Assembly: GCA_016748015.1 (NCBI GenBank)
Contig: JAAOMT010000073.1
Span: 62,001-126,000 of the forward strand
Length of the DNA stretch: 64,000 bases
DNA from: Geosiphon pyriformis uo1
Taxonomy: Eukaryota > Fungi > Glomeromycota
Direction of reading: 5' to 3'
Shown here: in pieces, positions 12,301 to 45,487 of the stretch
Numbering within the stretch: position 1 is the stretch's first letter
Layout: the number at the start of each line of letters is the position of its first letter
The notes under the pieces: generated by a model
The model's input: only the letters and a program-made list of their open reading frames with translations
The model's database searches: none
What the model was told of the DNA's origin: nothing
Translations under genes and position numbers: made by a program

Positions 12301-12931
12301 CAGTTTCTTTACTTTCCAAGCTTTCTGAGTGATTACTTTCGTTTTCCTGTAAGTAATCAATGATATTGGCACTTGTTGATATTGGTTCCTGCTGTTGAGT
12401 AGGATTTCTAGGTGACTGAAAATCTTCTGGTCTGAAAAAACAGCTAAGTGGTGAACTTGGTGTTTGTAGTTGAACAAATAAAATTGAAAATAATGTAATA
12501 GAAAGTGGTAATTTGACACTGGTTCCTTGTTCAGGTGTTTGCAAGTGTTTGGCAGTTGTCTTTTGTAGTGTTAGAGTGTTTGGAGTGGTTCTTGAGTATT
12601 GCTTCAATCTTTGTTTGCCTTTATTGCTTGTTTCTGTCTCTGATTCAAAGTCAAAAGAGTATTTAAACTGTACTGGGTATTTTTCTTCACAATACTTAAT
12701 AATATTAAAATTAAGTTCTTGAAAGTAGGTAGCAAGTGTTTTACTGTTCAGGTCTTCTGTTCCCAAATGTGAATAATGCACTAAATTATTGTAGAGGTTG
12801 CTTCTAACTTCTGAAATGTTGTAGTTTCCAAAAAGATAATTGTTGATGCGGTTTTCAATGTATTGGTATACTGATTTCTTTACAATTTCAATTCCGTCTG
12901 GAATGTTGAATCTTTGCTTGCAGTGGGTGTA
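6373..12931 (-). pseudogene. gag-pol: A1 gag-pol polyprotein (CA, CCHC knuckle, PR, Cys-rich module, partial dUTPase, RT, RH, IN)
   Basis: CHYCGIPGHWKQDC, LILNSGS, GIIDAGYTG/RGTQGFGSTG, WASPVVLVKKKNG, YLDD, LSDQGTHF; one frame except at the adapter. Confidence 0.92.
9911..9929 (+). other. Nextera/Tn5 mosaic-end adapter (assembly artifact)
   Basis: Exact CTGTCTCTTATACACATCT; gives MCIRDS/DVYKRQ peptides; replaces 480 bp present in paralog (21721-22200). Confidence 0.97.
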
Positions 12932-13359
12932 NNNNNNNNNNNNNNNNNNNNNNNNNNNNNNNNNNNNNNNNNNNNNNNNNNNNNNNNNNNNNNNNNNNNN
13001 NNNNNNNNNNNNNNNNNNNNNNNNNNNNNNNNNNNNNNNNNNNNNNNNNNNNNNNNNNNNNNNNNNNNNNNNNNNNNNNNNNNNNNNNNNNNNNNNNNNN
13101 NNNNNNNNNNNNNNNNNNNNNNNNNNNNNNNNNNNNNNNNNNNNNNNNNNNNNNNNNNNNNNNNNNNNNNNNNNNNNNNNNNNNNNNNNNNNNNNNNNNN
13201 NNNNNNNNNNNNNNNNNNNNNNNNNNNNNNNNNNNNNNNNNNNNNNNNNNNNNNNNNNNNNNNNNNNNNNNNNNNNNNNNNNNNNNNNNNNNNNNNNNNN
13301 NNNNNNNNNNNNNNNNNNNNNNNNNNNNNNNNNNNNNNNNNNNNNNNNNNNNNNNNNNN
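12932..13359. other. Assembly gap (covers A1 PBS/U5)
   Basis: N run. Confidence 1.
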
Positions 13360-14072
13360 ACTCTAATAATTGTAATAAGAAAAGAAAAGAAAATAAAAGA
13401 AATATAAAAGAAATAGAATTTTTGTCAAGAGAAACGTTTTCTATCCAGGCCTGAAGTCACTAATAGTTTACTGAAATTGGTAGCTAATCAATTTCAAAAC
13501 ATTAGTTGGTTTTTGGGGATTTTCTAAGGGCAATAATTAAAGAATTTGGTTTTTCAAATTATTTGGTATTTATTTCTTTTTGTGTGTATAGAAATGGTTC
13601 TAAGTAATAAATATAAAGTAAAATACATTTTCCAGAAGAGAAAAGCTCTTCTTTTATACAACTTGTTGTAATACTAGTTTATGAACTTGCACTTTTTTCT
13701 CTTTGCCTAAATTCCGGCAAACTAAAAATACATTTTGATGAACTACAAGTTATTTCGCTGAACTATTGATTAATTTGGGTGAACTATTCATAATTTCGGC
13801 AAATTTCTGTAAATTTCAGCAAATTTCTTATAAATTTCAGCAAATTTCTGTAAATTTCGGCGAATTTTTGAATGTTACAGAGTTCAGGGTATTGTGTAAT
13901 TTGATCATCTTACTTTCTGTTATACTAATTAAATTATTTTAATTGAATCGTGATATGTGATAATTGATTAAATAATAAATGATAATTTGAAATGATATTA
14001 ATATACTAATGAATTATAGGAATTATAAGGGTAATTTCATGCTAATTAATAGCTAAAATTCTACTGGTAACA
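13360..14072 (-). repeat. 5' LTR of A1 (visible part)
   Basis: Near-identical to about 4830-5541; ends GGTAACA. Confidence 0.92.
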
Positions 14073-17713: not shown

Positions 17714-18050
17714 TGTTACCAGATGAAATTAGAGATATTATTTAGCATGAAATTATCTTATAATTCCTATCATTAATTAGCATATATTATCATTTCAAAT
17801 GATCACATATTACATTAGCAAAAATGTCCGAAATTATCATTTAATTAATAATTCAAATTGTACACAACACAAATGTAACCTAATTGTGATGATCAATCAT
17901 GCAATACCCCGAACTATGTAACATTCAGAAGTTCACCAAAATTTGTAGAAATTTGCCGAAATAATTGATAGTTCACCGAAATATCTAATAGTTTGCCGAA
18001 ATAACTTATAGTTTGCCGAAATGTATCTTTAGTTCAGCGAAATTGTAGAA
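17714..18050 (+). repeat. 5' LTR of A2 (visible part)
   Basis: Matches 26497-26833. Confidence 0.92.
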
Positions 18051-18768
18051 NNNNNNNNNNNNNNNNNNNNNNNNNNNNNNNNNNNNNNNNNNNNNNNNNN
18101 NNNNNNNNNNNNNNNNNNNNNNNNNNNNNNNNNNNNNNNNNNNNNNNNNNNNNNNNNNNNNNNNNNNNNNNNNNNNNNNNNNNNNNNNNNNNNNNNNNNN
18201 NNNNNNNNNNNNNNNNNNNNNNNNNNNNNNNNNNNNNNNNNNNNNNNNNNNNNNNNNNNNNNNNNNNNNNNNNNNNNNNNNNNNNNNNNNNNNNNNNNNN
18301 NNNNNNNNNNNNNNNNNNNNNNNNNNNNNNNNNNNNNNNNNNNNNNNNNNNNNNNNNNNNNNNNNNNNNNNNNNNNNNNNNNNNNNNNNNNNNNNNNNNN
18401 NNNNNNNNNNNNNNNNNNNNNNNNNNNNNNNNNNNNNNNNNNNNNNNNNNNNNNNNNNNNNNNNNNNNNNNNNNNNNNNNNNNNNNNNNNNNNNNNNNNN
18501 NNNNNNNNNNNNNNNNNNNNNNNNNNNNNNNNNNNNNNNNNNNNNNNNNNNNNNNNNNNNNNNNNNNNNNNNNNNNNNNNNNNNNNNNNNNNNNNNNNNN
18601 NNNNNNNNNNNNNNNNNNNNNNNNNNNNNNNNNNNNNNNNNNNNNNNNNNNNNNNNNNNNNNNNNNNNNNNNNNNNNNNNNNNNNNNNNNNNNNNNNNNN
18701 NNNNNNNNNNNNNNNNNNNNNNNNNNNNNNNNNNNNNNNNNNNNNNNNNNNNNNNNNNNNNNNNNNNN
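18051..18768. other. Assembly gap (covers A2 U5/PBS)
   Basis: N run. Confidence 1.
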
Positions 18769-18769
18769 G

Positions 18770-21700
18770 AAATCAGTATACCAATACATTGAAAACTGCA
18801 TCAACAATTATTTTTTTGGAAATTACAATATCTCAGAAGTTAGAAGCAACCTTTACAATAATTTAGCACACTATTCACAGTTGGGAACTGAAGACCTTAA
18901 TAGTGAAACACTTGCCACTTACTTTCACGAACTTAATTATAACATTATCAAATACTGTGAAGAAACATATCCAGTGCAGTCTCAATACACTATTGATTTT
19001 GAATCGGAAACAGAAACAAGCAACAAAGGCAAAAACAAATTAAAGCAATATTCAAGAACCACCCCAAATACTCCAACACTACCAAAAACAACTGCTAAAC
19101 ATTTACAAACACCTGAACAAAAAACCAGTTCAAAACTTCCATTTACTATCACACCTTTTCCAGCCTCACTTGTACAAGCACAAACACCTAATTCACCCTT
19201 AAATTGATTTGCAAGACCAGAAGATTTTACATCACTCAGAAGTTCCACCAGACAACAAGAACCCCTTCAAACTAGTTCCAATCTCCTTGATTTTCTAGCT
19301 GAAAATCAAAGTGAACACTCTGAGACAGCAGTAAATGAAGAAAACAACTCTGAAATAACCGAAGAAGAATCAATAGACAGTGAAAACGAAGAAAACGAAA
19401 TAACAACATACATTGCAAAAATCCCTGAATTCAATAGAGAAGATATTGAGACCAGTCCCCAAGAATGGCTTGACTAAGTTACTAAAGCTGGAGATGCAAA
19501 TGGATGGAACGCTGCCAGAATGTTAAGAACAATTCCTTACTTTCTCAAAGAAACAGCAGAAAAATGGTTTGAAAACCTTGCCGCCTCATTCAATGATTGG
19601 AATGCTTTCAAAGCAGCCTTTCTTGAACAGTTTATTGACAATAATACCTCTATCACTCTTCGCAATTGTTTTCGAAATATCAAACAAGAATCCTCTGAAT
19701 CCGTTATGACTTATATTGGGAAATTCAACAAACTTCTCAGACGGATTTGCCAACTCAAGACAAACAATTATTATTCTGATGCTCAAATCTTGGATCAATT
19801 TATCGCTGGTCTAAAAGATAAACTAATTAAAAAGGTTTGCTCACATGTGCCAGAAGATTTAAACTCTGCAATACAGCATGTGAAAAGATACAAAATGGCC
19901 ATAAAAGAAGCCAATCATACAAAACTTGTAAATTTGGCAATTGGAGAAACCAGCTCAGCAGCTGAGAAAAAAATTGACCAACTCACAAAGAAGGTCAAAA
20001 ACTATTTTACCAACCAACAACAACAACAACCCCAAAGATATCAACCACCCCAAAGACAAAATCAAAATAACTTTGCACCACTTTCAAATAACCAGCCCCA
20101 GAATTGCCATTACTGTGGAATCTCTGGCCACTGGAAAAGAGATTGCAGAAAGCTACAGTGAGACCAACAAAACAGAGGTAATCAACATTATTCTCCACTA
20201 CAGCAATCTTATTATCAACTATTACCACCAGCTTACTATCCACCAAGACCCCAATACCAAAATAACTATTATCAGCCCGCCCCACAACCAATCCAACAGC
20301 AATACCAACAACTACCCACACAACATTATCAAGTACCTGCTCGAAGACTGATTACACAAAATCAATTCACACCACAAAACCGATACCAAGTAAACAACAA
20401 TAGAATCAGTCCAAACAACCAATTGGTTCCCCAAAATACCACTCAACCAAGATCCAACTCTTACCACACTCAACCCAGTTATTTAACAATGCCGGAAGAA
20501 CAGAATTTTCACCATACTACACCCTCGGAAGATAGAGCTGCAGCCCAACAACAACGAAACCTTTCTCATAACCACACCACTATTCCACCAGCCCGAATTG
20601 CTGAAAATGCCAATCTCTCTGATATCTTTCTTTTTGAATTTGAAGCAAATAAATCACCATTCTTGCTTAGCAATGCAGCGGCTAATGAGCAAAAAGCCAT
20701 CACTGCAATGTACACAAAAGCTGAAGTAGAAGGAAAGCCAATTCGTTTGATCCTAGACAGTGGATCCACCGGAAGCATTATTACCTACCAGTTAATGCAA
20801 CAGTTGAAAAGAAATGTTGACCGACCAGCTCAAACAGTAATCGTCACTGCCGATGGCATGAAAAAGACTCCAGTAGGAGAAATTGACAATTTTCCATTCA
20901 CTCTTGATGGAATCACCATTCCAGTCAAAGTTTTTGTAATGGACGCACCCCAATACCAAGCTCTTGTCGGAAATGATTGGCTTCAAAAAGCCAATGCTAA
21001 TCTGAACTGGGAAACACAAGAGTTAACAATCTCCTACCAAGGACAACACGCCCGGATACCTGCCATTTGTGGTACATTCAACAAACGCTCTGAAAAAGCC
21101 CCAGCTTTTGAATTTGAACCAGAAGAAGAAAAACCAATAATCGAAACATTCATGGCTCTTGGATCAACGTCCAACTGGGCCGATGAAACAGAACAAGAAC
21201 ATTTTACACCATACACTAAACCTGAAACCTCTGGATAGAATATACCTTACTCAAAACCCAAACCAAGAAAACAATGCCCCTATATTCTCCTTAAATATAA
21301 GGACTGCCACAAGAAACTATCATCAATGGGAGCCTGCATTTCACCTGAAGAAGAATATGAGAATCATACTTGTTATTACTGCAAGACTTGCCACAGAGAG
21401 CGATAAGACCATCTAATAAAAAAGAGTGGAAAATGGGACAACACTCCTTGTTTGACTTGTGGGGATATGCTACCAGAAGAATACAATTGGATTGATGTAG
21501 CAATGAGAGGAGGTGTCTGCAATCAGACCTGCCAATATGCTTTATCAATTTCAGAAAAAGTAAAAAGAGGAACACCCTTTAATGCAGCATACAATAGTGC
21601 TTTCAACAAACTTTATCACTACCCTCATGATGCTGAGATGATTTTCGACTTAGCAATGGCATTAATTAATGGAGCTACCAAAGAAAATGTTCGTCAAATG

Positions 21701-24700
21701 AAGGAAGCAGAATACATTGAATACACTATGGAATTAGCTGGATTTGATTATGAAGATAAAGTAGAAGTCTATCACCAAATTGCAAGTCACACCTACCCGA
21801 TCCAAGAAGCTCAAATTCAACAATTAGAGCAAATGAACATTAGGCTATATGAAGAATGCATTATGCCTTGCGATGAACAATGATGTCCCGAATGCTATGC
21901 TCTTAGTATCCCCTTGCCCAGCGAAAATGATGAGAATAAAATTGAATTTGGAGAACCTAAAAAAACGGAAGAAATTGAAACAACACCCATCTATCTTATC
22001 AAAAATCAGCCTGCCTTACAACTTAAATACTTCAACAACAACGGACAAGGAATAAAACCTGAAAAAGCACACAAAATTGATGCTGAATATGACCTAAGAT
22101 ATCCAGGCAAGAATACTTTTGTTCTCAAACCCAAATTTCTCACAAAAATCAACCTCAAAATTGCACTCGAAATCCCACCAGGAGCAATGGTTCAAATCAC
22201 CTCTCAGTCCTCTCTGGCAAGCAAAGGAATCAATGTCAGAGGAGGAATAATTGATGCTGGATATACTGGAGACATAACAGTGATGCTTCAAAATGAAACT
22301 GACAAACCATTTAAGATCGAACATGCTGAAAAAATTGCCCAAGCTATTTACCTACCCTTAATCAACATTTCGGATTTGCAACTAGTCAATCAAAGAGAAC
22401 AATTAGGAAAAAGCAATAGAGAAACCCAAGGCTTTGGTTCAACTGGATGATTCACAGTTCCAGTTAATATAGCTCTTAACACACAGAACAAATCCCACCA
22501 GATTCTCAGACTTCCACAACCAATTACCATTTCACCCTTTGGAGAACATCCAGAAATTTACACTTGCACAAAGCCAACAACCACACAACAAATTTTTGAG
22601 TCCAATGAACAAGTCTACTTGAAACATAATATTTTGATCCCAAACATTTATATTCCAGAAGGAACAAAGAAAGTCCGAGTTACTTTTTACAACCCCAATA
22701 ATTATCCCATAATTTTATTAAATAATTTAGAAATTGGAGTTATTCACAGTAATATATTTCAACAAGAATTACCCCAAACAGTTCCCGATTTTCCTGAAAT
22801 TATTGGACATTCACTACTGAAAATCAACCCAAACCCTAGCTCTGAAAACTATCATGTTGTCATGGAAAAACTATCTCGAATCAACATGAGACAACTTGAA
22901 CTACAACAACAGACCCAGCTCAAAGAACTAATTGCAGAATTTGCTGATATTTTTGCCAAAAACAACAATGACTTAGGAAGAACTGATTTGGTTCAACACC
23001 AAATCTATACAGGAGATGCCAAACCCAGGTGACAACAAGCCTACTGAGTTGCTTCAGAAAGTCACCAATTTATCCGAGAAGAAGTACAATGGATGCTTAA
23101 CAATGGGCTTATTCAACCATCAATGAGCCCATGGGCCTCACCTGTGGTTCTAGTTAAAAAGAAAAATGGAAAGATACAATTTTGTGTTGATTATCGACAA
23201 CTCAACAGTGTTACCATTGGGGATGCCTACTCTCTTCTCCGAATTGATGACATGTTGGATGCTCTTGGAAAGTCCAAATACTTTTCAACATTAGATTTAG
23301 AGAGTGAATACTGGCAAGTTGCTATGGATCCCAAAGACCGCCCCAAAACAGCATTCACTACTCAAGGAGGAAATTACAAGTTCAATATAATGTCTTTCAG
23401 ATTATGCAATGCACCAGCAACATTCCAAAGACTCATAGATGTTGTTTACAAAGGCCTTCTTTGGAAATCAGTAGTAGTTTATCTTGATGACACTGATGTT
23501 TATTCACCATCTTTCGAGCTACATTTAATTCACCTGCGAGAAGTTTTTCAATGATTATGGAAAGCAAGATTGAAATTGAACATTGAAAAATGCTACTTCG
23601 GAAAGACAAGTTTAGCTTTTCTTGGTCACATTGTTAGCAAAGATGGAATTAAACCAGACCCCGGAAAAATCAGTACTGTCAAAAACTTCAAGACTCCACG
23701 AAATACCACAGAATTAAGAGGATTTATTGGATTAGCATCCTATTACCAAAAATTCATCAAAGGATTCTCAGAAATTGCAAAACCCCTCAACCAGCTCACT
23801 ATGAAAAATGTCAAATACAAATGAACAAAAAAACACCAAAATGCCTTCGAGATACTTAAGGAAAAACTCACAACAGTCCCAATCCTCGCCTACTCAGACT
23901 TCAGCAACCGATTTCAGTTAGCAACTGACACTTTTTATACTGCCTTTGGTGCCATCCTATTACAGTTAGATGACAATGGAAATGAGCGAGTAATTGCTTA
24001 TGCTAGTAGAACATTAAAGCCAGCCAAAAAAAACTACCCTGCAACAGAATTAGAAACTGCAGCAGTAATCTGGGCCCTACATCACTTCAACCTTTACCTC
24101 AGACCCAAAGAATTTGATATTATCACTGATAATATTGGACTTAAATGGCTTCAAAACAAAAACACTCAGCTGAACGCAAAACAAACCCGATGGACAGGAT
24201 TTTTAGTTAATTACTAATACATCGTACACCACAAACCAGGAAAACTCCACACCAATGTTAATTGTCTCTCAAGGATGAGGCAAAATTAGAAACAAAACCA
24301 ACACCCATTTGAATTAACAGCATCAAAACAACAAACAATGAACCCCGAAAACTACAACAATCTCAAACAATATTTGGAGACATTAACAATCCCAATCGAT
24401 TGGTCCCCAGACGAAAAACATCGGTTACAACAACAAGCCAAACAATATTTTCTACATAACAACATTATCTATCATCGAAATTTCAAAAACCCAACCAAAC
24501 CACTCAGATTAATACAAGAACAGGAAAAAGAGACCATTTTATATAACATGCACTCGGATCCTTCATCAGCACACTTCGGAAAAGATAGTACCACCCAAAG
24601 AACACTAGAATACTACTTTTGGCCTTGAATAAGAAAAGACATTCACGAATATGTCAAATCTTGTGATAATTGTCAAAGAAGAGGAGGAACTCGTCCTACA

Positions 24701-25723
24701 GAACCTTTAAATCCAATCAAAGTTGGACAGTCTTTTGACAGAGTTGGTATCAATTTAGTCGGACCACTATCTATTACCACTCAAGGAAACTGTTATATTG
24801 CAGTAGCTGTAGACTATCTTACTAAATAGCCTGAAGCCAGAGCCATTCAACGAGCAGATGCAAAATCAGTAGCAAATTTTATCTACGAAGACATCATTTG
24901 TAGGCATAGATGTTCAATTGAACTTTTATCCGATCAGGGAACACACTTTGTGAACAACCTGATACAAGAAATTTGTGAATGATTCAATGTCAAAAGACCT
25001 CTGTCTTCGCCCTACCATTCACAAACAAATGGACTTGTGGAATGTTTTAACAGAACATTGTGTGAGTCATTAGCCAAAGTCTCAACCAATTTTGAGCAAG
25101 AATGGGATTTCTTTATTCCATCAGTGTTACTAGGATATAAGACATTAAAACAAGATACCACAAAACACACACCATTTGATTTAACTTATGAAAGGACAGC
25201 AACGTTACCAATTAGTTTCACAGTGAAAACATACCCAGCACAACTGATCGATGAAAACAATTTTCAAGAAACACTTCAGCAAAGAGCCTATACTCTGCTT
25301 AGTACATTGGAAGGAAAACGACGAATAGCAGCCACCCATATTGAACACTCCCAAGCTCAACAAAAAAAACGGCATGATGACAAATTGCCTTTAGTCACCA
25401 ATAAATTCAAAATTGGAAACAAAGTTCTCTTACACAGAACTAAAGCTGAAAAACAATGGAGTGGAAAATTTGAAAATAAATGGGATGGACCATTCTTTAT
25501 CCATGAAGTCTTAGGCAATGGATCATACAAGCTAAGACTTGATGACAAAATCTTAACAAAAGTTGCACATGGAAATCGTTTGAAACACTATCATTCCAGA
25601 AACAATCCTGAACCATTAATTCCACAAATTGGTACACATTTTTTTTTGGTCAGTCCCGAAGATATTCCCCGAAACTTAGAACCAATAGTTGTCATTGAAC
25701 AACCTTCCAACCTGAACACTTAA
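18770..25723 (+). pseudogene. gag-pol: A2 gag-pol polyprotein, single frame, nonsense-disrupted
   Basis: All ORF fragments 18881-25723 share a frame; CHYCGISGHWKRDC, LILDSGS, YLDD, integrase core, WDGPF. Confidence 0.93.
22050..22447 (+). pseudogene. dut: dUTPase domain in A2 Pol
   Basis: Five trimeric dUTPase motifs: DAEYDL, SQSSLA, GIIDAGYTG, KIAQAI, RETQGFGSTG. Confidence 0.93.
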
Positions 25724-25839
25724 TTTAATTTTACTAGTCATTTTTTTATAATTTAGAAACAATCTCACAAAAACAAAAACAAAAATAACATAAAAACTCA
25801 TACACCAAAAATAATTTTTATTTTTTTCAATTGCTTATA

Positions 25840-26528
25840 ATGACTATTTCTCAAAACATTCAACAATTATCCCAAAAACTAATGTTAGCTTTAAAAACAA
25901 TACCCGAATTATCTATTACTGTTACTGAAAACCACATTAATTATACCCAAACAGAAGTAGTTACAAATTTAGCCCCAAACTCACGAAAATATCACCCATA
26001 TAAAAAGAACACAAGAAGTTATACTGGAATTCACCTGCCAGAACTTTTAAAGCTTGCTTTAAGAGAAAACCTAATGCTCACTCTGATTAGTATTCCACCA
26101 AATGCTACAATTCAACAAAAACTTCAACTGTGTCTCAATGAGGAAAACACTGAATANNNNNNNNNNNNNNNNNNNNACTGGAACTTACAACAGCAAACCT
26201 CACAAAAGAAGCTATTCAGAAACAACTCCACAATGAATTCAAGACAACAGCTGGATTAACAAACAGTCGCTACAGGCTTAGAGCCGCCCTTAGACTTTAT
26301 GACCTATTCCACACCTGTGAAAATGTACTACAAAACCCAATTTTTCAACCCTTGAAGATTCAATACATTGGAAAGTTCACAGAACTGAAATTTCAACAAT
26401 TTTCAGACCAAATTTCTTCAATAATTTTGGATTATTATCTGGAAATAACAGACAGTACTTGGACTTTGACGGAGCTCAGTCTTGAGGAGGAGGTTATGTT
26501 ACCAGACGAAATTAGAGATATTATTTAG
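25840..26528 (+). pseudogene. ORF3 of A2 (contains 20-N gap 26157-26176)
   Basis: MTISQNIQQLSQKLMLALK...LEEEVMLPDEIRDII*. Confidence 0.8.
26484..26493 (+). promoter_or_regulatory. Polypurine tract of A2
   Basis: GAGGAGGAGG ending 3 nt before 3' LTR. Confidence 0.85.
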
Positions 26529-27476
26529 CATGAAATTATCTTATAATTCCTATCATTAATTAGCATATATTATCATTTCAAATGATCACATATTACATTA
26601 GCAAAAATGTCCGAAATTATCATTTAATTAATAACTCAAATTGTACACAACACAAATGTAATCTAATTGCAATGATCAATCATGCAATACCCTGAACTAT
26701 GTAACATTCAGAAGTTCGCTGAAATTTGTAGAAATTCGCCGAAATAATTGATAGTTCACCGAAATATCTAATAGTTCACCGAAATAACTTGTAGTTTGCC
26801 GAAATGTATCTTTAGTTCAGTGAAATTGTAGAAAATAGCAAAGTTCAAGTTTATAGAATAGTGTTACAACAAGTTGTATAAAAGAAGAGCTTCTCTTTTC
26901 GAGAAAATGTATCTTACTTTAGATTTATCTCTTAAAAACCATTCCTATACACACAAAAAGAAATAAATATCAAATAATTCGAGAAACCAAATTCTTTAAT
27001 TATTGTACTTGGAAAATCTCCAAAACCCAACTAACATTTCGAAATTGATTAGCTACCAATTTCAGTAAACTGTTAGTGACTCCAGGCCTGGATAGAAAAC
27101 GTTCCCTTGATAAAATCCTATTTCTTTTACACTTCTTTTATTTTTCTTTCTTTTCTTATTACAATCATTAAGGTAGCCTACAGATGAGATTTCTGTAGAA
27201 AAGTTGACTTTCACAGCAAAGTAACTACACATTTTTTAGTAAGCTTCCAGACGAGCAATTCCTGGGAAAGAGTTGACATTTACTACAACGTAACTACATA
27301 AAGCAACTGGCATGGAATTGGCCATTCCACTTATAAGCCCAGCAAGTTCAAATTATAGGAGATAATTTGAAGATAAATTCAGTTACTGGAGGTTCAACCA
27401 CATCCAGAAAATGTGAATTCACAGCAAATAAGTATCAACAACATTACAGAAAAGAGACCAAAAACCTCTGGTAACA
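26497..27476 (+). repeat. 3' LTR of A2 (980 bp)
   Basis: TG...CA termini; repeat array 26714-26826; TATAAAAG 26877-26884. Confidence 0.94.
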
Positions 27477-30437: not shown

Positions 30438-31317
30438 TGTTACTCATAGAAATATAGGAAATATAGTAGCATAATTATTAGTTAATCAGAAGTAGATATA
30501 GTAAATGTGAAATTCCAGGATTCCTCTTAGGAATTGCAGGATTCCAGAAATTACAGAATTCTCACACAAGGAATTGTAGAATTTTAGAATTCCAGGATTC
30601 CTCTCAAAAGAATTGCAGGATTCCAGGAATTCCAAGATTCCTATCGTGAAGAATTAAGAAATTGAGAAATCTCAATTATGTATATATAGCAATAGCATTA
30701 GAAGCTGAAAAGACAGACCTCTCAGTTTAGATTTGACCTAAGCAATCTTACAGTTCCCAATTATCAAATAAATAATTATTTTATATCTCAATCCACTCTC
30801 TACTATCAACACTTTATGTTGATAGTAATTGATACTTAACCATACTAGAACAATAGCTCTTAATCATGGCTATTGATGGGATACTAACTTACCAAATTGT
30901 CTTGGCTTATTTTCTTTATTTCATTTTCTTTTCTTTCTTTCTTTTTTTTTCTTTTTTTGTGTTGTTTTGTTGTTGTATACTAATTAATTAAGGATTAAAA
31001 GTGCTGAGTTATTGACATCATGGATAGCCTGGTAAAAAACCCAGAAATAAGGGTAGAATTTTATATATTATCAGATAGCTTACCAGAAGGGCATGACTGT
31101 TAGACTAAATCCGGCCTTCACACTGAGAAAAAAATTGGACAGAATTGTAATTCCAAAGACTATTACAAATACTGTTAAATCTCTGTTTATTATACAAAGA
31201 ACTTCATCAAAACCTTCAGATACAACACTTTCAGAATATCATTGATAGAAATAGCTTTTGAGCACCAAGTTACAGATTTGTTATTTGTCTTGAGACTTCA
31301 AAGATTCAATTGTAACA
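30438..31317 (+). repeat. 5' LTR of B1
   Basis: TGTTACTC...TGTAACA; GGAATT/GGATTCC array 30510-30640; TATATATA 30681-30688. Confidence 0.95.
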
Positions 31318-31336
31318 TTTGGTGCTCCCTGTGAGG
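31318..31336 (+). promoter_or_regulatory. PBS of B1; primer unassigned (3' end resembles elongator tRNA-Met or tRNA-Ile(UAU))
   Basis: TTTGGTGCTCCCTGTGAGG; complement ends CCTCACAGGGAGCACCA. Confidence 0.85.
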
Positions 31337-31343
31337 TATAATC

Positions 31344-34300
31344 CTACAAAGAACCAGCACCAACAAACACCATCCAAAAGTGGCAGAATCAGAAAATATA
31401 GGAGCAAACCATTTAGGATTTGCAAAATTTTTATTTCAACACTATTGTTAATACCTGAGATTAAACCACAATCACATATCTGCCGAATCAGTCAATTTCT
31501 ATGTCAACAAAAAGATTTCCTCTTTGTTAGAAACACCAATAAATACTGAATCAGCAAAGGAAACTTTCTATAGAGAATTAATTCAAAACACCAACCTACC
31601 AACAAATCATAATTTCGCATCCATCATCACTAAAATCAACAAAGAAATTGAACATCACACTTAACAAAGATATCTAATTACATATGCTAGTAAAGGCAAA
31701 GGAAAACTACAAACACCAGCAGTAATATCCAGAAAAATACAACCATCTACTTGGAAGAAAAACAGAATTGAATTCCCAAGCAACTCATCCTACCACTATA
31801 CACCCGGAAGCGCCATCAACATATCATCAACAGATGTGTTCCCATCAACTGTGACATCAACATTTAGACAATTCTCATTCCAAAGTAAACAAAAGAAAAC
31901 AGAATTATTAGGACCATATGGCAAATACTTTGAAGGATTTAATTTACGATCACCAATGCCATCAGAAATTCGATCACTGCCACCTCAACCAGACTTTGGA
32001 ACTGCTACTCCATAGAAATTATCTGAAAAAGAAGAAGAAGAAGAATCAGAAGAAGAATCAGAAGATCAAGAATTTACTTACCAAAACCCAATCACTGAAA
32101 ACCCGAAAGTTGAAACACCGAATCTTCAAATCCAGCAAAATTTAAATCTAGAAAATTTGGAAATCAAAACTCTGAATTATTAAAGGCAGAACAATCCAAA
32201 CCCCGAATTAATTAATCAACAAAACTTACCTCTGGTAATTGTCATCAATCAACCACTGATTAATCCAATAGCCGAACCCATACAGCTGCCACTTCAACTA
32301 CCACCCCAACAACCAGCACCACAACAACCACTTTAACAGCCACCACAACCACCCAACTTAGATCCAATGGTCTATGCATCAATCACAAAACTTGACAATT
32401 TTACTGGCAAAGAGGATGACACTCAAGTATGGCTAAATGATGTAGAAAAAGCTATTGCAGCCAACAGATGGAATGATGTCTGAGCCATGCAAGCCATTTC
32501 CTACTTTCTCAAGGATACCGCCAATTCATGGTACCAGAGCTTGATTAATAAACCACAAGATTTCAATGCCTTCAAAGTGGAATTCCTAAGATACTTCAGC
32601 AACAATAACAGCATCAATTGCCTAGTCAACATATTCACCACCATAAAACAAGGAGAAACTGAAGCAGTCACCACTTACCTGGAATACTTCTATCGAAATC
32701 TGCACCAAATTCAAGCAATTGATGCCAATTATTTCACAGCATCACAGATCCTCAACCAGTTTATCCATGGCCTGTGCAGTAGCATCTTGTAACATATACA
32801 TCTATTGCATCCAGGCACACTTCAAGATGCAGTCACATGCACCAGAGATTTTGAATCCACTGAGTCAGAGGCCAACCACGCCCAAGTCATCAATCTAGTA
32901 ATGAATAGATCATCTGAATTGGATTCCAAATTGGAGAAGTTCAGTGAATCAATTAATAAGAGATTGGAAGGATACTTAGTTGACAATCATGTCATTTATC
33001 AGCCTCCACAATGATGCAATTATTAAGAAAACTCTAATTGTGGCCAAAATCAACCACATTCATCTTTATCAACCAATCAACAGTGGCAACAGAAAATGCG
33101 TATCTGCCACTATTGTGGTAAACAAAAACATATTCAACTCGACTGCCGTTAGTGTTTAAATAACCAATAATTGGGAAATCAATATCAAAAACCCGATCAC
33201 CAGTTCTCAACTCTAAATCATCAATCAAACTCAACACAATATTAAACCACTTACCTACCAATAACGCAGCAACCAATCTATCAACCACCAGTATATTAAC
33301 CACCAGTTTATCAAAACCCAACAATTTATTTACTGCAGCCACAAGTAATTTATTAGCCATCTCAAGTGATCTATCAACCCCAACCAATTCAAACACTGCC
33401 CCAAAACTCAGCTACTATGACATCAGGAAACCCAAGACTTAGAATTACTCAAAACTGGAGATTGGCAATGGTAGTTCACCAACTGATCCCCAGTTCATCA
33501 AACCAGCAAATAGAATCTCGGCAGTAGAATTCGGGTACCAGTACCACCCAAAACCCGAATTCTCAACACTATTTAAGTCTCCTGGTCACTCCAGAAGACA
33601 CCACATCCAGCAACTTGGAATCCGACCAACAGACAACACTTACCAATAACATCCCACCAGCAACTGTTACCAATAATGGATCATTAGCAGCCATCTTCCC
33701 TTTTGAACTTGAGAAGCCATTCTAATTACTGCTATTTAGTGGAGCTGCCCTCGAAGAGAAACCCATCACAGCAATGTACACTGATGCAAAAATAGATGGA
33801 CACCCTATCAAATTTATCCTTAATAGTGGTTCAGCAGGTAGCATTATCACTAAGCAACTCATGAATCAATTAGGTTGCCAAGTTGATTAAACTGCCAGCG
33901 CTAGAATTATCACTGCAGATGGCACCATGAGAATGTCTATTGGTGAAATTAATGACTTCCCAATTGAAGTTAATGGCATCATCACCCCCATTAAGGTCTT
34001 GGTAATGGAAGCAACTTAGTACTAAGCACTAGTTAGTAATGATTGGCTAGTCAAAACCAATGCTGTGCTCGACTGGACCACGCAAAAACTCCAGCTCAGT
34101 CGGAATGGATAACACACATGAGTACCAGCCATGTGTGGTCATTTCAAGACCACCAACTTATCAGCACCACTAATTGACTTTAAAGAAAAGACAAAACCTA
34201 CCTGGGAAGCCTACCAAGTTTTGTGGACTGACCCAGACCACAACAAACTGCTGTTGATACTTTCATGAAACAACAACCCCAAGGGAAAGCAAAAAAAGAA

Positions 34301-37300
34301 ACTGACCTGGGAGACAAATGATTTGACTTGGACTGATAACAAACAGGAAGAACCATCGAGTTGGGAGTGGAAAGAAAAAAAGGGAAAAGGGAAAGAGAGG
34401 GAGGAAAAAAACACTCAAGCCAACAACATTTATATCCCATACACCTACAGTCAACAACAATCATCAACTTATTGCTGACCCAAACTGATATGCGTTGATT
34501 ACAGCAAAAAATTGTTATCAATGGATGCATGCTGTGGTGATGATGAAGAATATCAGATGGCAACCAAGTTTTATTGCTGCACATGCCTTGTCAAACATTT
34601 TGGAAGACCAAAACGAGTGGGAAAATAGGATAATACACCATGTCTAGCCTGTGAAAAAACTCTTCTCAACAAAGGAATGTGGAACGACATTTCTGGGAGA
34701 AGAGGAATATGCGACGTTTCCTGCCAATACATGATCCTCATTAGCGACTGGGTCGAGAAAAAGACACCAATAGAAGCCGCTTGGAGAAGAGCTGTACAGC
34801 AATTGGACAGTTGTCCACACAACAACAATAAATTATGGCGAATGGCAATCACCAAAATTAAAGGCGCATTGCCAGAAGAAATCAGGACAATTAAAAACAA
34901 CCCACCAGAACCCATTGAGCTTGACTGGGACGTAGAGCCAGTCATAAATTTTCTGAAACCAGAAGAGTTCCATGAGCACTACCAAAACTTGGCACCTACT
35001 AGAAAGGAGCAAGAACAATGGCTAGCACAGTTGAATACAAGACTGTGTTGCCATTGTTTAATTCCCAGTGACTTTGAATATTGTGACAATTGTGATCTTA
35101 TTTACAATCCACTACCAGGCATAATCTACACAATCCCTGAAGAAGAAGAACTAATCAACAGCTGTGCATTGAAGTCGGAATCACTGTTTGATCCTGATTC
35201 AAACTCTGACAACAATGACGATGAGAATAATGGTTTCAGCTCCATTCAAAATGGCAATGACTTCAACTCAGATTCAAACCCCAATTCAAACCGCAAACAA
35301 TATATTGCACTTCCTGATCTCTCCAAAGAACAAGAGCTCAAATGATTTAGTCATAATGGTGAAAGTATCATGCCAGAATGCACGCATGATATGGATGCAG
35401 GGTTTGATTTAAGATATTTAGGAAAAGATGTCATCAAATTGAAACCAAACGCGCAAATATGCATTGATTTAAAAATAGCTCTAGAGATTCCAGCAACAAC
35501 CATGATTCTTTTAGCATCTAGGAGTAGTTTAGCAAAGAAGGGGATTAATATTAGAAGGGGAATAATAGATGCAGAATATACAGGAAATATCAGCACCATG
35601 CTACAAAATAACTTAAAAAAGACCTATACAATTGAGCCAAATAAAAAGATAGCACAGACCATATTTCTGCCATTAGTCAAAATAGCCAGCTTAGTGGAAG
35701 TGGGAACAAGGGAGGAATTGGAAATAACAGCAAGAGAGATACAAGGATTTGGGTCAATGGGTAGAATAGAGATACCAATTAATATGATAGAGGAAGAAAT
35801 TGTTGGCCAAAGAGAAATTATCTTAATCAGTCAAGCTATTTCCATTCCACTATATAGCTAGTACATACTAGCAATAGAAAAGAAAAAAAAGGAACAAGAA
35901 CAGATTTTTGAAGCTGAAGCAAACCTTTGTGAATCAGGAGAGATTGGACTGATCAATCTCCACATACCAACCAAAAGCTATAGCCACATAAAAATTCCCA
36001 TTTACAACAACACTGGCAAAGTCATCAACATACCAAAAGAAACTACCATTAGATATTTAACCACAGAAATAGAAGACCAACCACCAAACCCCATTCTGGA
36101 CTTTCCACAACTTTGTAAATATGTCAACATCACATCACAAACAATTTATGAACAGAACAAATGTTATTTGCTTCAACCAGAACAATTAGAACAAATGAAC
36201 ATGGGAAATCTAGACCCACTACAATGTATACAGCTCAAAATGTTACTCAACAATTTCAATGACATCTTTGTCAGTGAAAACAAATTTGGCAGAACTGACA
36301 TCATCCAACATCAAATCAAGACCAAAGATACAATGCTAATCAAACAGTGAGCATACAGAGTACCACTAACCAGCCATAAAATCATTCATCAAGAGATTAA
36401 TCAAATGCTTGACAATGGACTAATCCAGCCATCTATGAGCCCATGGTCATCACCAGTGGTACTTGTCCATAAGAAGAATAAAAAAATTCGATTTTGTGTG
36501 GATTACAGAAAACTCAATAGTGTAACTTGTGGAGACAGCTATTCGACTCCATGAATTCAGGAATTATTCAATGCTTTTGGTGGAAACAAATAGTTCTTAA
36601 TATTAGATTTGGATAGTGGTTACTGGCAAGTAGCCATGGATCCAGCTGATAAGGAGAAGATGACATTCACTACTAGAGAAGAGAATTTCGAATTTGAAGT
36701 AATGTTTTTTGGCTTAACCAATGCCCCAGCCACTTTCCAATGGCTAATAGAAATTGTTTATACTGGCTTATTGTCAAAATCAGTAGTTGTATACTTGAAT
36801 GACACCAATGTATTCTCAAAAACATTTGATAATCATCTTCATCATCTTCAACAAGTGTTCGAAAAACTAAGAAGAGCAGGACTAAAGTTAAATGCAACAA
36901 AGTGCTTCTTCAGCAAGACAGAACTAAAATTCTTGGAACACATAGTCAGTAAAGACAACATCAAAACAGATCTAGAGAAAATAGAGATAGTAAAAAACTT
37001 TCCAGTACCAACCAATGTAACTGAATTGAAATCATTCTTGGGATTCACAAGCTATTATTGATGCTTTATAAAGAACTTTTTAAAGATAGCTCAACTGCTC
37101 AATAATCTGCAAACCAAGAATACCAAATATGAATGGACAGAAAGTCAACAAGAAGCTTTTGATATTCTGAAAAGAAAGCTCATTCAAGCTCCAGTACTAA
37201 TCTACCCAGATCACAACAAACTATTCATCATTACTACTGATGCATCAGGCCAAGCATTGGAAGCAGTACTATCTTAGAAGGGACCAGACGGTAGAGAACA

Positions 37301-39041
37301 TCTAGTAGCATATGCCAGCCAAAGTCTAACACCAGCCAAAAAGAACTATGGAACACCAGAACTAGAACATTTAGCAATCTATTGGGCAGTCATGAAGTAG
37401 AACAAATACTTGAGCCAAAAGTTTGATATATACATGGATCATAAAAGGTTAACATCACTTCAAATGCAAGAATTTGATGACACCCACCAATCCAGATAGA
37501 AAATGGCACTCTCATAATATACTTATACTATACACTATAAGAAAGAAAAAGACAATGGAAATGCTAATGGTTTGTCGCAAATAAGACAAATCTAAAAACA
37601 TTTCAAACTCAAAAATATAACAAAACCAGAACAATACCAACGAAAAATACAACAAAAGATGAACATACAAAAATATCAACAAATTCAACATTATATAACC
37701 ACTCAACAGTTCAAAAAAAATTTATCTCAAATAGAATGAAAGAGTATCAAACAACAATCAAAATATTTTATCACTTACCAAAATATACTTTATCGAAAAA
37801 ATAGAAAGGATCCAGATCAACCAACCAGAGTAATTATAGAGCCAGAAAAAGAAACAATATTATTCAACATGCACTCAAATCCAACAGCAGGACATTTTCA
37901 CAAATAAACAACTATGGAAAGAACCAGAAAATAATATTATTGGCCATCAATGTATCCAGACATCATCTAATATGTTCAAAATTGTGATGCTTGTCAGCAA
38001 AGAGGAGAAACAAGACTCTGTGAACCATTAAGACCAATCAAAGTGGGACAACCATTTGACTGGATTGGAATTGATCTAGTCAGACCATTAACAATCACCA
38101 GAGAAGAAAACAGGTACATAGCAGTAGCCATAGACTATCTCACTAAATGGCCAGAGGCAAAAGCAATTCAAAGAGCGGATGCAAAATCTATTGCTGAATT
38201 TGTTCATCAAGATTTGATCTGTCGACACAGATGTTCAAAAGAACTATTATCAGACCAAGGAACCCACTTTGTGAATAGAACATTAGCAGAATTAAGCCAG
38301 AAATTTGGGATTAAGAGACCACTATCATCACCATATCATTCACAAACAAATGGTCTAGTTGAAAGATTTAATAGAACATTGTGTAAAGCAATTGCCAAAC
38401 TCAGCCAAGAAAACCAGGACAAATGGGATTTGTTCATACCATCAGTATTATTTGCTTATCAGACAATGAAGCAAGATACTACACAAGCAACACCATTTAA
38501 ATTAGTATATGGTAGAACAGCAACATTACCAGTAGAGAGAGAAATTAATACATATTCAGCTAAACCAATAACAGAAGAGAATTTTCAAGAAACATTGCTG
38601 AGAAGAACATATGACTTAATGGAAACATTGGAAAACAAATGAAGAAGAGCAGCTGATAATATTCAAAAGTCACAAGAAAAACAGAAAGAAAGACACGATA
38701 GTCAACTACTAAACAAACCAGTTGAATTCAAGATTGGAGACAAAGTACTCTTATATCATACCAAAGCGGAAAAACAATAGAGTAGAAAATTTGACCCCAA
38801 ATGAGATGGACCATTTCACATAGAAAAAATTCTAGAAAATGGAGCTTACAAATTAAGACTGGATAACAAAATTTTAACCAAAGCAGTACATGGAGATTGA
38901 CTGAAACCATACCACAACATTACACCACCATCTACTAGTAATATTCCACAATTAAGAGTACAGAGAATACTAGTCCAACCAGATGAAATTCCACAAGATC
39001 TGGAACCAATTGTTATTATTGACAATAACACATTAAATTGA
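31344..39041 (+). pseudogene. gag-pol: B1 gag-pol polyprotein, single frame, nonsense-disrupted
   Basis: Fragments 32487, 34677, 35370, 36609, 38043 share a frame; CHYCGKQKHIQLDC, FILNSGS, YLND, TDAS, LSDQGTHF. Confidence 0.92.
35370..35765 (+). pseudogene. dut: dUTPase domain in B1 Pol
   Basis: DAGFDL, SRSSLA, GIIDAEYTG, KIAQTI, REIQGFGSMG. Confidence 0.92.
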
Positions 39042-39068
39042 TTCATCAAAAGAATATATAAAGACACA

Positions 39069-39725
39069 ATGGACACAACAGGAAATATCAGAAAAATGAA
39101 GATTACAGACAACATTCACTCACTAGCACAACAACTTTTTTAATTAATCCAACACCAAGAAATGGAGATTACAATCAATCAACAAACCATTCAATATCAA
39201 GATACTAGAAAGACATTACAACACAGAAAACAGAAAAAACCAGAAAATACCGTCAACAAAATCATGGCAAAAGTAAAATTAGCAATAAAAGAATTGACAA
39301 AAGAGTCAATATATTAAGAGTTGACTAAAGAAACTTGGAATTGGTGGACACAACAATTTTCACAAAACTATTGTTATTTTTACTTGGGACAACACGTAAA
39401 TATCTAGAATTTATATACAGATAAAACAAAGCAGTTATTCAACACAATAATATTACAACAACTAGAACATTTTGTAGAGAAAAATAACTTATCCACACAA
39501 GCTCGAGCTATATACTGAATACACACAGCATTTTAGGATTGACCAGAAATTTTACTCAACAAAGCAATGGATATGGTTACCAGTAATCAATTGGGAAAGA
39601 TCATCAATGCTCAATTTGAAAAATTACAAACTCAAATAACACAAGTAATTATTGAAAACAAAATCCAGAAAATACTTCAAGAGGGGAAATTAACAGAGTT
39701 GGATTTTGACAAAGCTCAATATTAA
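39069..39725 (+). pseudogene. ORF3 of B1 (not in ORF track because of internal stops)
   Basis: Hand translation MDTTGNIRKMKITDNIHSLAQQLF...QLGKIINAQFEKLQTQI aligns by eye with family-A ORF3. Confidence 0.72.
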
Positions 39726-39738
39726 AAGAAGGGAATAA

Positions 39739-40618
39739 TGTTACTTATAGAAATATAGGAAATATAGTAGCATGATTATTAGCCAATCAGAAGTAGACAT
39801 AGTAAATGTGGAATTCCAGGATTTCTCTCAGAAATTGCAGGATTCCAAGAATTACAGAATTCTCATACAAAAAATTGCAAGATTCCAGAATTGCAGAATT
39901 CCTCTCAAAGAAATTGCAAGATTCCAGGAATTCCAGAATTCCTGTCATGAAGAATCGAGGAATTGAGGAATCTCAATTATGTATATATAGCAATAGTGTT
40001 AGAAACTAAAAAGACAGACCTCTCAGTTTAGATTTGATCTAAGCAACCTTACAGTTCCCAATTATCAAATAAATAATTATTTTATATCTCAATCCACTCT
40101 CCACTATCAACACTTCATGTTGATAGTAATTGATACTTAACCATACTGGAACAATAGCTCTTGATCATGGCTATTGATGGGATACTAACTTACCAAATTG
40201 CCTTGGCTTATTTTTTTTATTTCATTTTCTTTTTTTTCTTTTTTTTCTTTTCTTTCTTCATGTTGTTTTGTTGTTATATACTAATTGATTAAGGATTAAA
40301 AGTGCTGAGTTATTGACATCATGGATAGCCTGGTAAAAGACCCAGAAATAAGGGTAGAATTTTATATATTATTAGATAGCTTACTAGAAGGGCACAACTG
40401 CCAGACTAAATCTGGCCTCCATGCTGAGAAAGAAATTGGACAGAATTGTGATTCTGAAGACTATTACAAATACCATTGAATCTCTGTTCATTATACAAAG
40501 AACTCCATCAAAACCTTCAGATACAATACTTTTAGAATATCATTAACAGAAATAGCTTTTGAGCACCAAGTTATGGATTTGTTATTTGCCTTGAGACTCC
40601 AAAGATTCAATTATAACA
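39739..40618 (+). repeat. 3' LTR of B1
   Basis: Direct repeat of 30438-31317; preceded by PPT AAAAGAAGGGAA; CCAAT box AGCCAATCAG 39781-39790. Confidence 0.95.
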
Positions 40619-44680: not shown

Positions 44681-45368
44681 TAATCTCCTCCTCAAGACTA
44701 AGCTCTGTTGAAGTCCAAGTACTGTCTGCACATTTCAGATAGTAATCCAAAATTACTGAAGAAATTTGGTTTGAAAATTGTTGAAATTTCAGTTCTGTGA
44801 GTTTCCCAATGTATTGGATCTTTAGTGGTTGTAAAATTGGGTTTTGTAAGATATTTTCACAAGTATAAAATAGGTTATAAAGTCTAAAAGCTGCTTTAAG
44901 TTTGTAGCAACTGTTTGTCGGTCCAGCCATTGTCTTAAATTCATTGTAAAGTTGTTTCTGAATGGCTTCTTTTGTGAGATTGGCTGTTATGAGTTCTAGT
45001 TTTTGTTCATGTAGTGTTTTTTCAATGTGAAAATATCTATAGATTGGAGGGTATTCATTGTTTTCTTCATTAAGACACTGTTGAAGTTTTTGTTAAATTG
45101 TGGCATTTGGTGGAATGTCAATAAGTGGAAGCAACAAATTTTCTCTTAAAGCAAGCTTCAAAAGTTCTGGTAGGTAAATTCCAGAATAACTTCTAGTGTT
45201 TTTTTTATAAGAGTGATAATTTTGTGATTTTGGGAATAAGGTTGTGGCTGTTTCTGTTTGAGTATAATTAATATGTTTTCCTGTAATAGTAATAGATAAT
45301 TCAGGTATTGTTTTTAAAGCTAACATTAGTTTTTGGGATAATTGTTGAATGTTTTGTGGAATAGTCAT
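44661..45368 (-). pseudogene. ORF3 of A3
   Basis: MTIPQNIQQLSQKLMLALK...LEEEIMLPTET*. Confidence 0.8.
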
Positions 45369-45487
45369 TATAATAATTTTTAAGAAATTAAAAATTTTCC
45401 TAAGTAAAATTATTTTTGGGTATATAGATTTTTATGTTATTTTTGTAGGATTGTTTCTGAATTTTTATAGGAGAATAATTATAGTAA

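What the first reader, a model, noticed from the sequence alone, without database searches (positions are those of the whole stretch)
25840..26528. Conserved non-env ORF3 of unknown function at the env position in both families
Seen: a 220-235 aa frame between IN and the 3' LTR in all four elements (5522-6229, 25840-26528, 44661-45368, 39069-39725). Families A and B have unalignable LTRs, yet the proteins align by eye: TISQNIQQLSQKLMLALKTIPELSITV vs KITDNIHSLAQQLF-LIQHQEMEITI; YKYFQIGK vs YCYFYLGQ; YIGKLTELKFQQFSDQI vs QLGKIINAQFEKLQTQI. There is no signal peptide or transmembrane segment, so it is not Env. In family A it runs through the PPT into U3. Inference: a selected accessory protein (targeting, anti-silencing or movement). 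I do not recognise the family.
Basis: partly seen in the sequence, partly recalled or inferred. Interest (0 to 1): 0.8.

Follow-up and report, generated by a model that had tools for sequence, protein, structure and literature searches.

The report
Orphan third gene in fungal retrotransposons
These jumping genes, likely from a mycorrhizal-type fungus, carry a real, selected extra gene after integrase that matches no known protein family and is not an envelope gene; it is predicted to fold as a helical bundle that may bind the element's own promoter repeats, which is untested.

Summary
Confirmed. Four Ty3/Gypsy elements carry ORF3 between integrase and the 3' LTR; three copies have internal stops and one spans an assembly gap. 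Families A and B are homologous (hhalign E 2.7e-6; 0 of 2000 shuffles reach the score). dN/dS is 0.22-0.27, against 0.83 for LTR DNA. There is no membrane segment. Named close relatives are Geosiphon pyriformis hypothetical proteins, in at least five subfamilies. Distant relatives (26-37%) occur in metagenomes, one intact at the same position in a related element. No family, solved-sequence or Foldseek match was found. The C-terminal domain folds confidently as seven helices; its best whole-domain matches are ParB/Spo0J-type helix-turn-helix domains, but at Z 4-5, below the noise line, and profile tests were inconclusive. Each family's U3 holds its own motif array before the TATA box. Integrase is also a separate ORF, so these elements have three cistrons. 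Best guess (0.38): a regulator that binds its own LTR. The scan noted similar extra genes and separate integrases in other genomes. Verdict: a new accessory-protein family of a known kind, function unproven.

The parts
25840..26528 (+). ORF3 of element A2 (the finding); 20-N assembly gap at 26157-26176; runs through the PPT into U3
   Evidence: 92% and 91% identical to intact P0001 on either side of the gap
5522..6229 (-). ORF3 of element A1, 235 codons, one internal stop
44661..45368 (-). ORF3 of element A3, 235 codons, one internal stop
39069..39725 (+). ORF3 of element B, 218 codons (second ATG at 39096), six internal stops; ends before the PPT
17714..27476 (+). Element A2, Ty3/Gypsy; TG...CA ends, 4-bp target duplication CCAC; LTRs 95.8% alike over the 337 sequenced bases
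18769..24289 (+). A2 ORF1 (decayed; start hidden by an N run): capsid, zinc knuckle, aspartic protease, Cys-rich insert, dUTPase, RT, RNase H, ending in a stop conserved across elements
24338..25723 (+). A2 integrase as a separate ORF with its own ATG, 48 nt after the RNase H stop
25724..25839 (+). Integrase-ORF3 spacer, 116 nt, 3% G, no ATG
26471..26496 (+). Conserved GGAGCTCA-type DNA motif and polypurine tract, overlapped by the ORF3 tail; family B reads the motif in another frame
26497..27476 (+). A2 3' LTR, 980 bp
26714..26826 (+). Family-A U3 array: six copies of an RTTCGCCGAAAT-like motif spaced 20-21 bp, upstream of a TATA-like box at 26877-26883
39813..39938 (+). Family-B U3 array: ten ATTCCAGGA-like motifs, unrelated to the A motif
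30438..40618 (+). Element B, Ty3/Gypsy; LTRs 880 bp, 90.8% alike; target duplication ATGC; RNase H stop at 37595, integrase ATG at 37659
4527..14072 (-). Element A1; RNase H stop at 7816, integrase ATG at 7758
43703..54473 (-). Element A3, with a solo LTR (47318-48290) inserted in pol; RNase H stop at 46914, integrase ATG at 46873 in another frame

Best explanation
ORF3 is a selected, non-envelope third gene of a fungal-type Ty3/Gypsy lineage, and its product is likely a helical DNA-binding regulator that would bind the motif array in its own family's U3 to switch the element on or keep it unsilenced. Shown: the gene, its position, A-B homology, purifying selection, an intact copy at the same position in a distant element, and family-specific U3 arrays before the TATA box. 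Predicted: a small alpha-beta-beta N-terminal module and a seven-helix C-terminal domain. Inferred from weak evidence: a ParB/DUF1016-like helix-turn-helix that binds DNA, the U3 array as its target, and fast divergence of ORF3 tracking the change of array between families. Because integrase and ORF3 both sit behind stops, both would need re-initiation, internal entry or a subgenomic RNA; the short, G-poor spacers fit re-initiation, which is untested.
For: Homology. Selection: dN/dS 0.22, 0.25 and 0.27 (upper 95% bounds 0.33-0.41), against 0.83 for LTR DNA and 0.61 and 1.49 for shifted frames. Intact copy after integrase and across the PPT in metagenome locus L001. ORF3 diverges faster than integrase: A vs B 23% vs 57%; L001 vs A 33-37% vs 56-59%. 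Domain model pLDDT 91.4, pTM 0.85. Of 50 rows, 6 span the domain to its end, and the three with the lowest rmsd are Spo0J (Z 5.3, rmsd 4.2, 92 aligned), Raf1 N-domain (Z 4.4, rmsd 4.9, 88; its HTH-like nature is recalled) and ParB DBD (Z 4.3, rmsd 5.6, 92). With the full model Spo0J ranked first (Z 4.3, rmsd 5.6, 93) and KorB appeared (Z 3.5, rmsd 5.7, 96). U3 arrays differ among A, B and L001; the A motif has 0 hits in the B LTR and B interior; in L001 the core TTGCCCT occurs 3 times in U3 and twice in the spacer before ORF3 (0.02 expected there). Precedent: VANC proteins with tandem-repeat targets that vary between related elements (PMC5735166, abstract).
Against: All structural Z values are under the tool's noise line (8; about 13 for helical bundles), and unrelated helical proteins rank above Spo0J (top Z 6.1). 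Foldseek found nothing at E<=0.001. Profile-profile tests were not significant: DUF3102 E 0.34, HTH_ParB E 0.36, DUF1016_N E 0.042 (score 17.0; best of 30 shuffles 15.9). The proteins are not strongly basic: pI 7.1-9.3, K+R about equal to D+E in 4 of 5. U3 enhancer repeats are common in LTRs without any accessory gene (own knowledge) and may bind host factors. The motif profiles were built from the LTRs they score. The spacer copies were seen in L001 only; A2, A3 and B interiors show no excess (A1 had 4 hits, 1.0 expected). Only three ORF3-array pairs are known, too few to test co-evolution.
Confidence: 0.38

Rival explanations
1. ORF3 is an RNA-binding regulator, like Rev or the CERV protein of Cer1, that would export or sort full-length versus subgenomic RNA or control translation of the downstream cistrons.
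For: The elements have three separate cistrons, so expression needs post-transcriptional control. CERV is a novel accessory protein of an LTR retrotransposon needed for genomic RNA export (PMC10309623, abstract). A DNA motif before the PPT is conserved in 5 of 5 elements regardless of frame.
Against: No arginine-rich stretch is visible in the alignments; no RNA-binding family matched; no conserved splice acceptor was seen by eye in the spacers.
Confidence: 0.2
2. ORF3 is a counter-defence protein acting by protein-protein contact, which would block RNA silencing or DNA methylation machinery without sequence-specific DNA binding.
For: Fast divergence under purifying selection fits an arms race. 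The elements expanded strongly: 201 family-A-like and 100 family-B-like protein clusters; Geosiphonaceae and Ambisporaceae had striking LTR expansions (PMC11952901, passages).
Against: No match to a known suppressor in Pfam, PHROGs, PDB or viral folds; no sign of dN/dS above 1 in either half of the gene (0.31 and 0.23).
Confidence: 0.17
3. ORF3 is a cofactor of integrase or the particle, which would steer integration or nuclear import.
For: It lies directly after a free-standing integrase that has no chromodomain hit. An unchecked scan note on this genome reports CpG-centred target sites.
Against: ORF3 diverges far faster than integrase, while the noted target bias is said to hold across families; no chromatin-reader fold was found.
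Confidence: 0.15
4. ORF3 is an Env-like or movement protein for transfer between cells or nuclei.
For: It occupies the env position; these fungi have many nuclei in one cytoplasm (own knowledge).
Against: No hydrophobic segment; soluble helical model; no viral fold match.
Confidence: 0.05
5. The frame is a non-functional by-product, kept only through overlapping cis signals.
For: The last 15-25 codons overlap a DNA motif and the PPT that are conserved in different frames; three of four window copies carry stops.
Against: dN/dS 0.31 and 0.23 in codons 1-105 and 106-210, outside the overlap; protein similarity persists where the DNA no longer aligns; 53 near-full-length family-A proteins were aligned.
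Confidence: 0.03

Closest known systems
Ty3/Gypsy (Metaviridae) LTR retrotransposons with dUTPase and an additional ORF of unknown function in fungi (PMC2864245, passages)
   Same: PR-RT-RH-IN order; dUTPase between PR and RT as in PosPlaTy3-5; the figure legend lists an additional ORF of unknown function.
   Different: Those are basidiomycete and ascomycete elements from a chromovirus survey. Here integrase is a separate ORF, and I could not compare their additional ORF with ORF3 (supplement not read).
Non-env ORF3s of bdelloid rotifer LTR elements (PMC5408684, abstract)
   Same: A third sense ORF at the env position; dUTPase-bearing lineages.
   Different: Those ORF3s are fusion glycoproteins, small membrane proteins, GDSL esterases or DEDDy exonucleases; none matched here.
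TRP28 ORFs of plant Retand elements (PMC11963269, abstract)
   Same: An extra ORF between pol and the 3' LTR, unknown function, proposed to bind DNA and regulate the element; tandem arrays present.
   Different: Antisense, in a 3-6.5 kb region, in plants; no Pfam match here.
VANC anti-silencing proteins of VANDAL transposons (PMC5735166, abstract)
   Same: Works-like model: an element-encoded protein and element-specific tandem motifs that differ between related families.
   Different: Arabidopsis DNA transposons; binding and demethylation are shown there, neither here; no sequence match found.
ParB/Spo0J/KorB-type helix-turn-helix domain, and DUF1016_N
   Same: Best whole-domain structural matches; the DUF1016_N profile aligns over 62 columns across the same helices.
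   Different: Z 3.5-5.3 with rmsd 4.2-5.7, no significant sequence similarity, no ParB N-terminal domain.
CERV of C. elegans Cer1 (PMC10309623, abstract)
   Same: A novel accessory protein of an LTR retrotransposon that is not Env.
   Different: Made from a spliced RNA and shown to export genomic RNA; no similarity tested directly.

Membership tests
Ty3/Gypsy (Metaviridae) | LTRs with TG...CA ends and a short target duplication | tested here: met
   4-bp duplication exact in 3 of 5 insertions, one mismatch in 2; a sixth had a misplaced boundary and was not counted
Ty3/Gypsy (Metaviridae) | Gag, then protease, RT, RNase H, integrase in this order | tested here: met
Ty3/Gypsy (Metaviridae) | Integrase inside the Pol polyprotein (canonical layout) | tested here: not met
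   a stop after RNase H and an own ATG in 5 of 5 elements; a variant layout, not a reason to leave the superfamily
Ty3/Gypsy (Metaviridae) | PPT before the 3' LTR and primer-binding site after the 5' LTR | tested here: inconclusive
   PPT present; a TGG-starting site follows the 5' LTR in A3 and B, but no tRNA was at hand to match
Ty3/Gypsy (Metaviridae) | RT phylogeny places it in a named clade | not tested
   no tree built
Env / fusion glycoprotein | Transmembrane anchor | tested here: not met
   highest 19-residue hydropathy 0.27-1.14 in 5 of 5 proteins
Env / fusion glycoprotein | Signal peptide | tested here: inconclusive
   hydropathy only; the most hydrophobic window of family A starts at residue 10 and is modelled as a helix and strand
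ParB-type helix-turn-helix domain | Structural match over the domain | tested here: inconclusive
   Spo0J Z 5.3, rmsd 4.2, 92 aligned; below the noise line
ParB-type helix-turn-helix domain | Profile similarity to HTH_ParB, DUF3102 or DUF1016_N | tested here: inconclusive
   E 0.36, 0.34, 0.042; low power, as DUF3102 vs HTH_ParB gave E 0.42 and HTH_ParB vs DUF1016_N E 7e-4
ParB-type helix-turn-helix domain | Sequence-specific DNA binding | not testable with these tools
   needs a binding assay
VANC-like anti-silencing system | Family-specific tandem motifs in non-coding parts of the element | tested here: met
   different U3 arrays in A, B and L001; common in LTRs, so weak
VANC-like anti-silencing system | Protein binds the motif and lowers methylation of cognate elements | not testable with these tools
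   no methylation or binding data
Described enzymatic ORF3 types (GDSL esterase, DEDDy exonuclease, AlkB/2OG dioxygenase) | Family match in Pfam | tested here: not met
   no such hit in 6 proteins or 21 alignment members

The most novel reading that the evidence does not exclude
A three-cistron Ty3/Gypsy lineage of Geosiphon-type fungi encodes its own sequence-specific transactivator or anti-silencer, built on a ParB-like helix-turn-helix, whose specificity diverges together with phased motif arrays in each family's LTR: a VANC- or Tas-like circuit in a fungal LTR retrotransposon.
Probability: 0.25. Interest if true: 0.82.

Novelty: new variant of a known kind. Interest (0 to 1): 0.52.

Why it matters
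Extra ORFs in LTR elements are known, but few have a function, and this protein family matched nothing in the libraries searched. It comes as a natural series of diverged subfamilies (about 20-45% identical), three of them with a known and different U3 array, so cognate versus non-cognate binding is directly testable. If ORF3 activates or shields its own element, it would help explain the large LTR expansion reported for Geosiphonaceae, and would add a fungal LTR case to the few element-encoded anti-silencing systems. In practice, several hundred annotated Geosiphon 'hypothetical proteins' appear to be this transposon gene rather than host genes.

Tried and rejected
No whole genome was held for the window, so copy numbers and dN/dS rest on the window copies. 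Family searches: Pfam gave no credible hit (best E 0.008, single members). PHROGs best was unnamed phrog_23683 (7 of 24 members, E 4e-4), not followed up. NCBIfam and PDB sequence searches gave a weak FtsQ hit for P0001 only (E 0.0024; E 0.04); rejected because it vanished with the profile. Foldseek against PDB and viral models found nothing at E<=0.001. The Atlas gave no named lead: unnamed clusters at 0.94 for P0305, all TM under 0.5, and no usable hit for P0313. No relatives in viral contigs, prokaryote genome contigs, phages or plasmids, or 301 sampled genomes of one bacterial phylum. KorB alone vs the ORF3 profile: E 0.31. Homodimer prediction: no verdict. No RNA holder listed; one DNA run covers the stretch, and its contig depths cannot rank genes. 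Rfam: 0 matches in 24000-27600. A-vs-B dN/dS was impossible because the DNA does not align. I recalled a helical family of Glomeromycota hypothetical proteins with a similar pattern; it did not appear among the named hits and remains untested. The N-terminal module was not folded and searched alone. Literature: ten searches showed no description of this ORF; subscription journals are mostly missing, and no supplement or TE library (such as that of PMC11952901) was read.

Full report
Setting. The window is a stack of nested LTR elements at about 33% G+C. Pfam finds Ty3-type capsid, zinc knuckle, aspartic protease, dUTPase, RT and integrase in Ty3/Gypsy order. Family A has three elements (A1, A2, A3) plus solo LTRs; family B has one element plus a partial LTR. 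The source is not given. All 120 listed of 201 hits for family-A ORF3 and all 100 hits for family-B ORF3 are named Geosiphon pyriformis hypothetical proteins, at up to 79-85% identity over most of the length. The host is therefore inferred to be that fungus or a close relative. Geosiphonaceae and Ambisporaceae are reported to have had striking LTR expansions (PMC11952901, passages).

The observation. A1 and A3 have one internal stop each and B has six. A2 has none in its sequenced parts but spans a 20-N gap that stands for about 18 codons. These copies are dead or gapped; intact-looking versions exist elsewhere (53 near-full-length family-A proteins picked from the 120 listed; 15 of the 100 family-B hits). 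The A and B profiles align over 181 columns at E 2.7e-6, with all three by-eye blocks in register. Single sequences give E 6e-7, and no shuffle of 2000 reaches the real score in 4 of 4 pairs. The LTRs and the ORF3 DNA of A and B do not align over any length.

Selection. Among the three A copies dN/dS for ORF3 is 0.27 (0.18-0.41), 0.25 (0.17-0.39) and 0.22 (0.14-0.33). Integrase gives 0.14 and 0.21, RT 0.11 and 0.14, capsid 0.12 and 0.13. Controls are 0.83 for LTR DNA and 0.61 and 1.49 for shifted frames. The three pairs share sequences, and the method ignores transition bias, which is why the controls matter. Both halves of the gene are constrained (0.31, 0.23).

Range of the family. A profile search of 1.84 billion representatives gave 111 hits. 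I looked up 10 of them: 7 Geosiphon and 3 unnamed metagenome proteins. A third search gave 72 hits, 70 Geosiphon and 2 unnamed. Clustering 213 proteins that cover most of the helical domain gave 14 groups at 55% identity; several are chimeric gene models, leaving at least five Geosiphon subfamilies and three metagenome groups. For one metagenome protein the DNA was found: locus L001 reads RT-RNase H, stop, integrase, spacer, intact ORF3, PPT, LTR. Its integrase is 54-59% identical to the window's and its ORF3 33-37%. A vs B is 57% for integrase and 23% for ORF3. So the gene has kept its place across a deep split and evolves much faster than the enzymes. For the other Geosiphon subfamilies the position is suggested only by gene models that join the integrase SH3 end to ORF3 pieces.

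Anatomy beyond the finding. In 5 of 5 elements a stop ends RNase H at the same residue. An ATG opens integrase 24-63 nt later, in another frame in A3. The layout is Gag-PR-dUTPase-RT-RH, then IN, then ORF3. Six of 7 spacers examined have 0-6% G; the family-A spacers hold no ATG. This fits re-initiation or internal entry, but no RNA data were available. The scan's earlier notes describe separate integrases in other genomes, with overlapping start and stop codons rather than spacers; I had seen the stop before that look-up. A GGAGCTCA-type motif before the PPT is kept in all five elements. Family A and L001 read through it into U3, which gives the acidic tail; family B reads it in another frame and stops. 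The tail is thus mostly a by-product of cis signals.

What the protein looks like. There is no membrane segment and the net charge is near neutral to mildly basic. The model of a full-length relative has pLDDT 80: an N-terminal helix and two strands, a flexible linker, then helices. The helical domain alone folds at pLDDT 91. Foldseek found no match. The exhaustive aligner found only weak rows, but ParB-type DNA-binding domains recur and are the ones that cover the whole domain: Spo0J Z 5.3, rmsd 4.2, 92 aligned; Raf1 N-domain Z 4.4, rmsd 4.9, 88; ParB Z 4.3, rmsd 5.6, 92; KorB Z 3.5, rmsd 5.7, 96. Unrelated proteins score as high or higher over half the domain, and all values are below the stated noise line. 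I built profiles of DUF3102 (25 sequences), HTH_ParB (30) and DUF1016_N (18) from bacterial genomes. They gave E 0.34, 0.36 and 0.042 against the ORF3 domain, in a test whose own controls were weak. The helix-turn-helix reading is a lead, not a result.

A possible target. Each family has its own motif array in U3 just before a TATA-like box. In A there are 3-7 copies per LTR in 7 LTRs, mostly 20-21 bp apart, about two helical turns. In B there are about ten copies of an unrelated motif, and in L001 a third motif. In L001 the core also occurs twice in the spacer before ORF3 (0.02 expected), as an internal promoter might; A2, A3 and B show no such excess. Arrays like these are common LTR enhancers and may bind host factors (own knowledge), so they are consistent with the model but do not single it out.

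Mechanism and odds. Real, selected accessory gene: about 0.95. DNA-binding regulator of its own LTR: 0.38. Rev/CERV-like RNA regulator: 0.2. Counter-defence by protein contact: 0.17. Integrase or particle cofactor: 0.15. Env-like or movement protein: 0.05. Non-functional: 0.03.

What is known. Additional ORFs are a known kind: fungal Gypsy elements with dUTPase and an ORF of unknown function (PMC2864245, passages), rotifer ORF3 types (PMC5408684, abstract), Retand TRP28 (PMC11963269, abstract) and CERV (PMC10309623, abstract). VANC is the works-like model (PMC5735166, abstract). Passages of PMC3248453, PMC13465315 and 10.64898/2026.05.21.726589 added nothing on this ORF; other papers were seen as search listings only. 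Foamy-virus Tas is recalled. Ten searches found no description of this family, within the library's limits. Two scan notes on other genomes describe helical extra genes with acidic tails after integrase. Sequence look-ups found no look-alikes, so their kinship with ORF3 is unknown.

Verdict. A real and apparently undescribed accessory protein family in a three-cistron Ty3/Gypsy lineage; a new variant of a known kind; function unproven but directly testable. Interest 0.52.

Noticed in passing
window 24289-24338 (+), 37595-37659 (+), 7816-7758 (-), 46914-46873 (-); L001 774-799: Integrase is a separate ORF in 5 of 5 elements, behind a stop at the same RNase H residue and an A/C-rich spacer of 24-63 nt.
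   Followed up: partly
window about 21260-21950 (+), A2; also A3 about 50200-50930 (-): A Cys-rich insert of about 230 codons with several CxxC pairs lies between protease and dUTPase. No Pfam or NCBIfam hit; dN/dS 0.26. A second orphan domain.
   Followed up: partly
window 26471-26478; 39709-39725; L001 3090-3097: A GGAGCTCA-type motif with a palindromic core just before the PPT is conserved at DNA level in different reading frames; possibly a replication or RNA-pairing signal.
   Followed up: partly
window 26714-26826: The family-A U3 motif contains two CpGs in a near-palindrome (TTCG-N-CGAA); most copies show CpG decay.
   Followed up: partly
L001 2140-2455: Two copies of the element's U3 motif core lie in the long spacer before ORF3: a possible internal promoter.
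   Followed up: partly
window about 54500-64000: G+C falls to 11-15%. The region holds a heavily mutated family-A LTR (about 59830-60760, no CpG left) and remains of RT and integrase from another element (55900-57400), suggesting a strong C-to-T mutational process on older repeats.
   Followed up: no
window 47318-48290 and 40728-41669: Solo family-A LTRs, one inserted inside pol of element A3 and one just after element B.
   Followed up: no
window 22451-23032 and 8794-9660: Weak Spumavirus A9 protease Pfam hits (E 0.005 and 5e-7) just before RT cover only the profile's C-terminal part; probably the pre-RT linker, not a second protease.
   Followed up: no
window 2078-3446, 27696-29064, 41650-43510: Non-LTR host or other repeat sequence between the elements, with ORFs lacking Pfam hits; the first two are 65% alike.
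   Followed up: no
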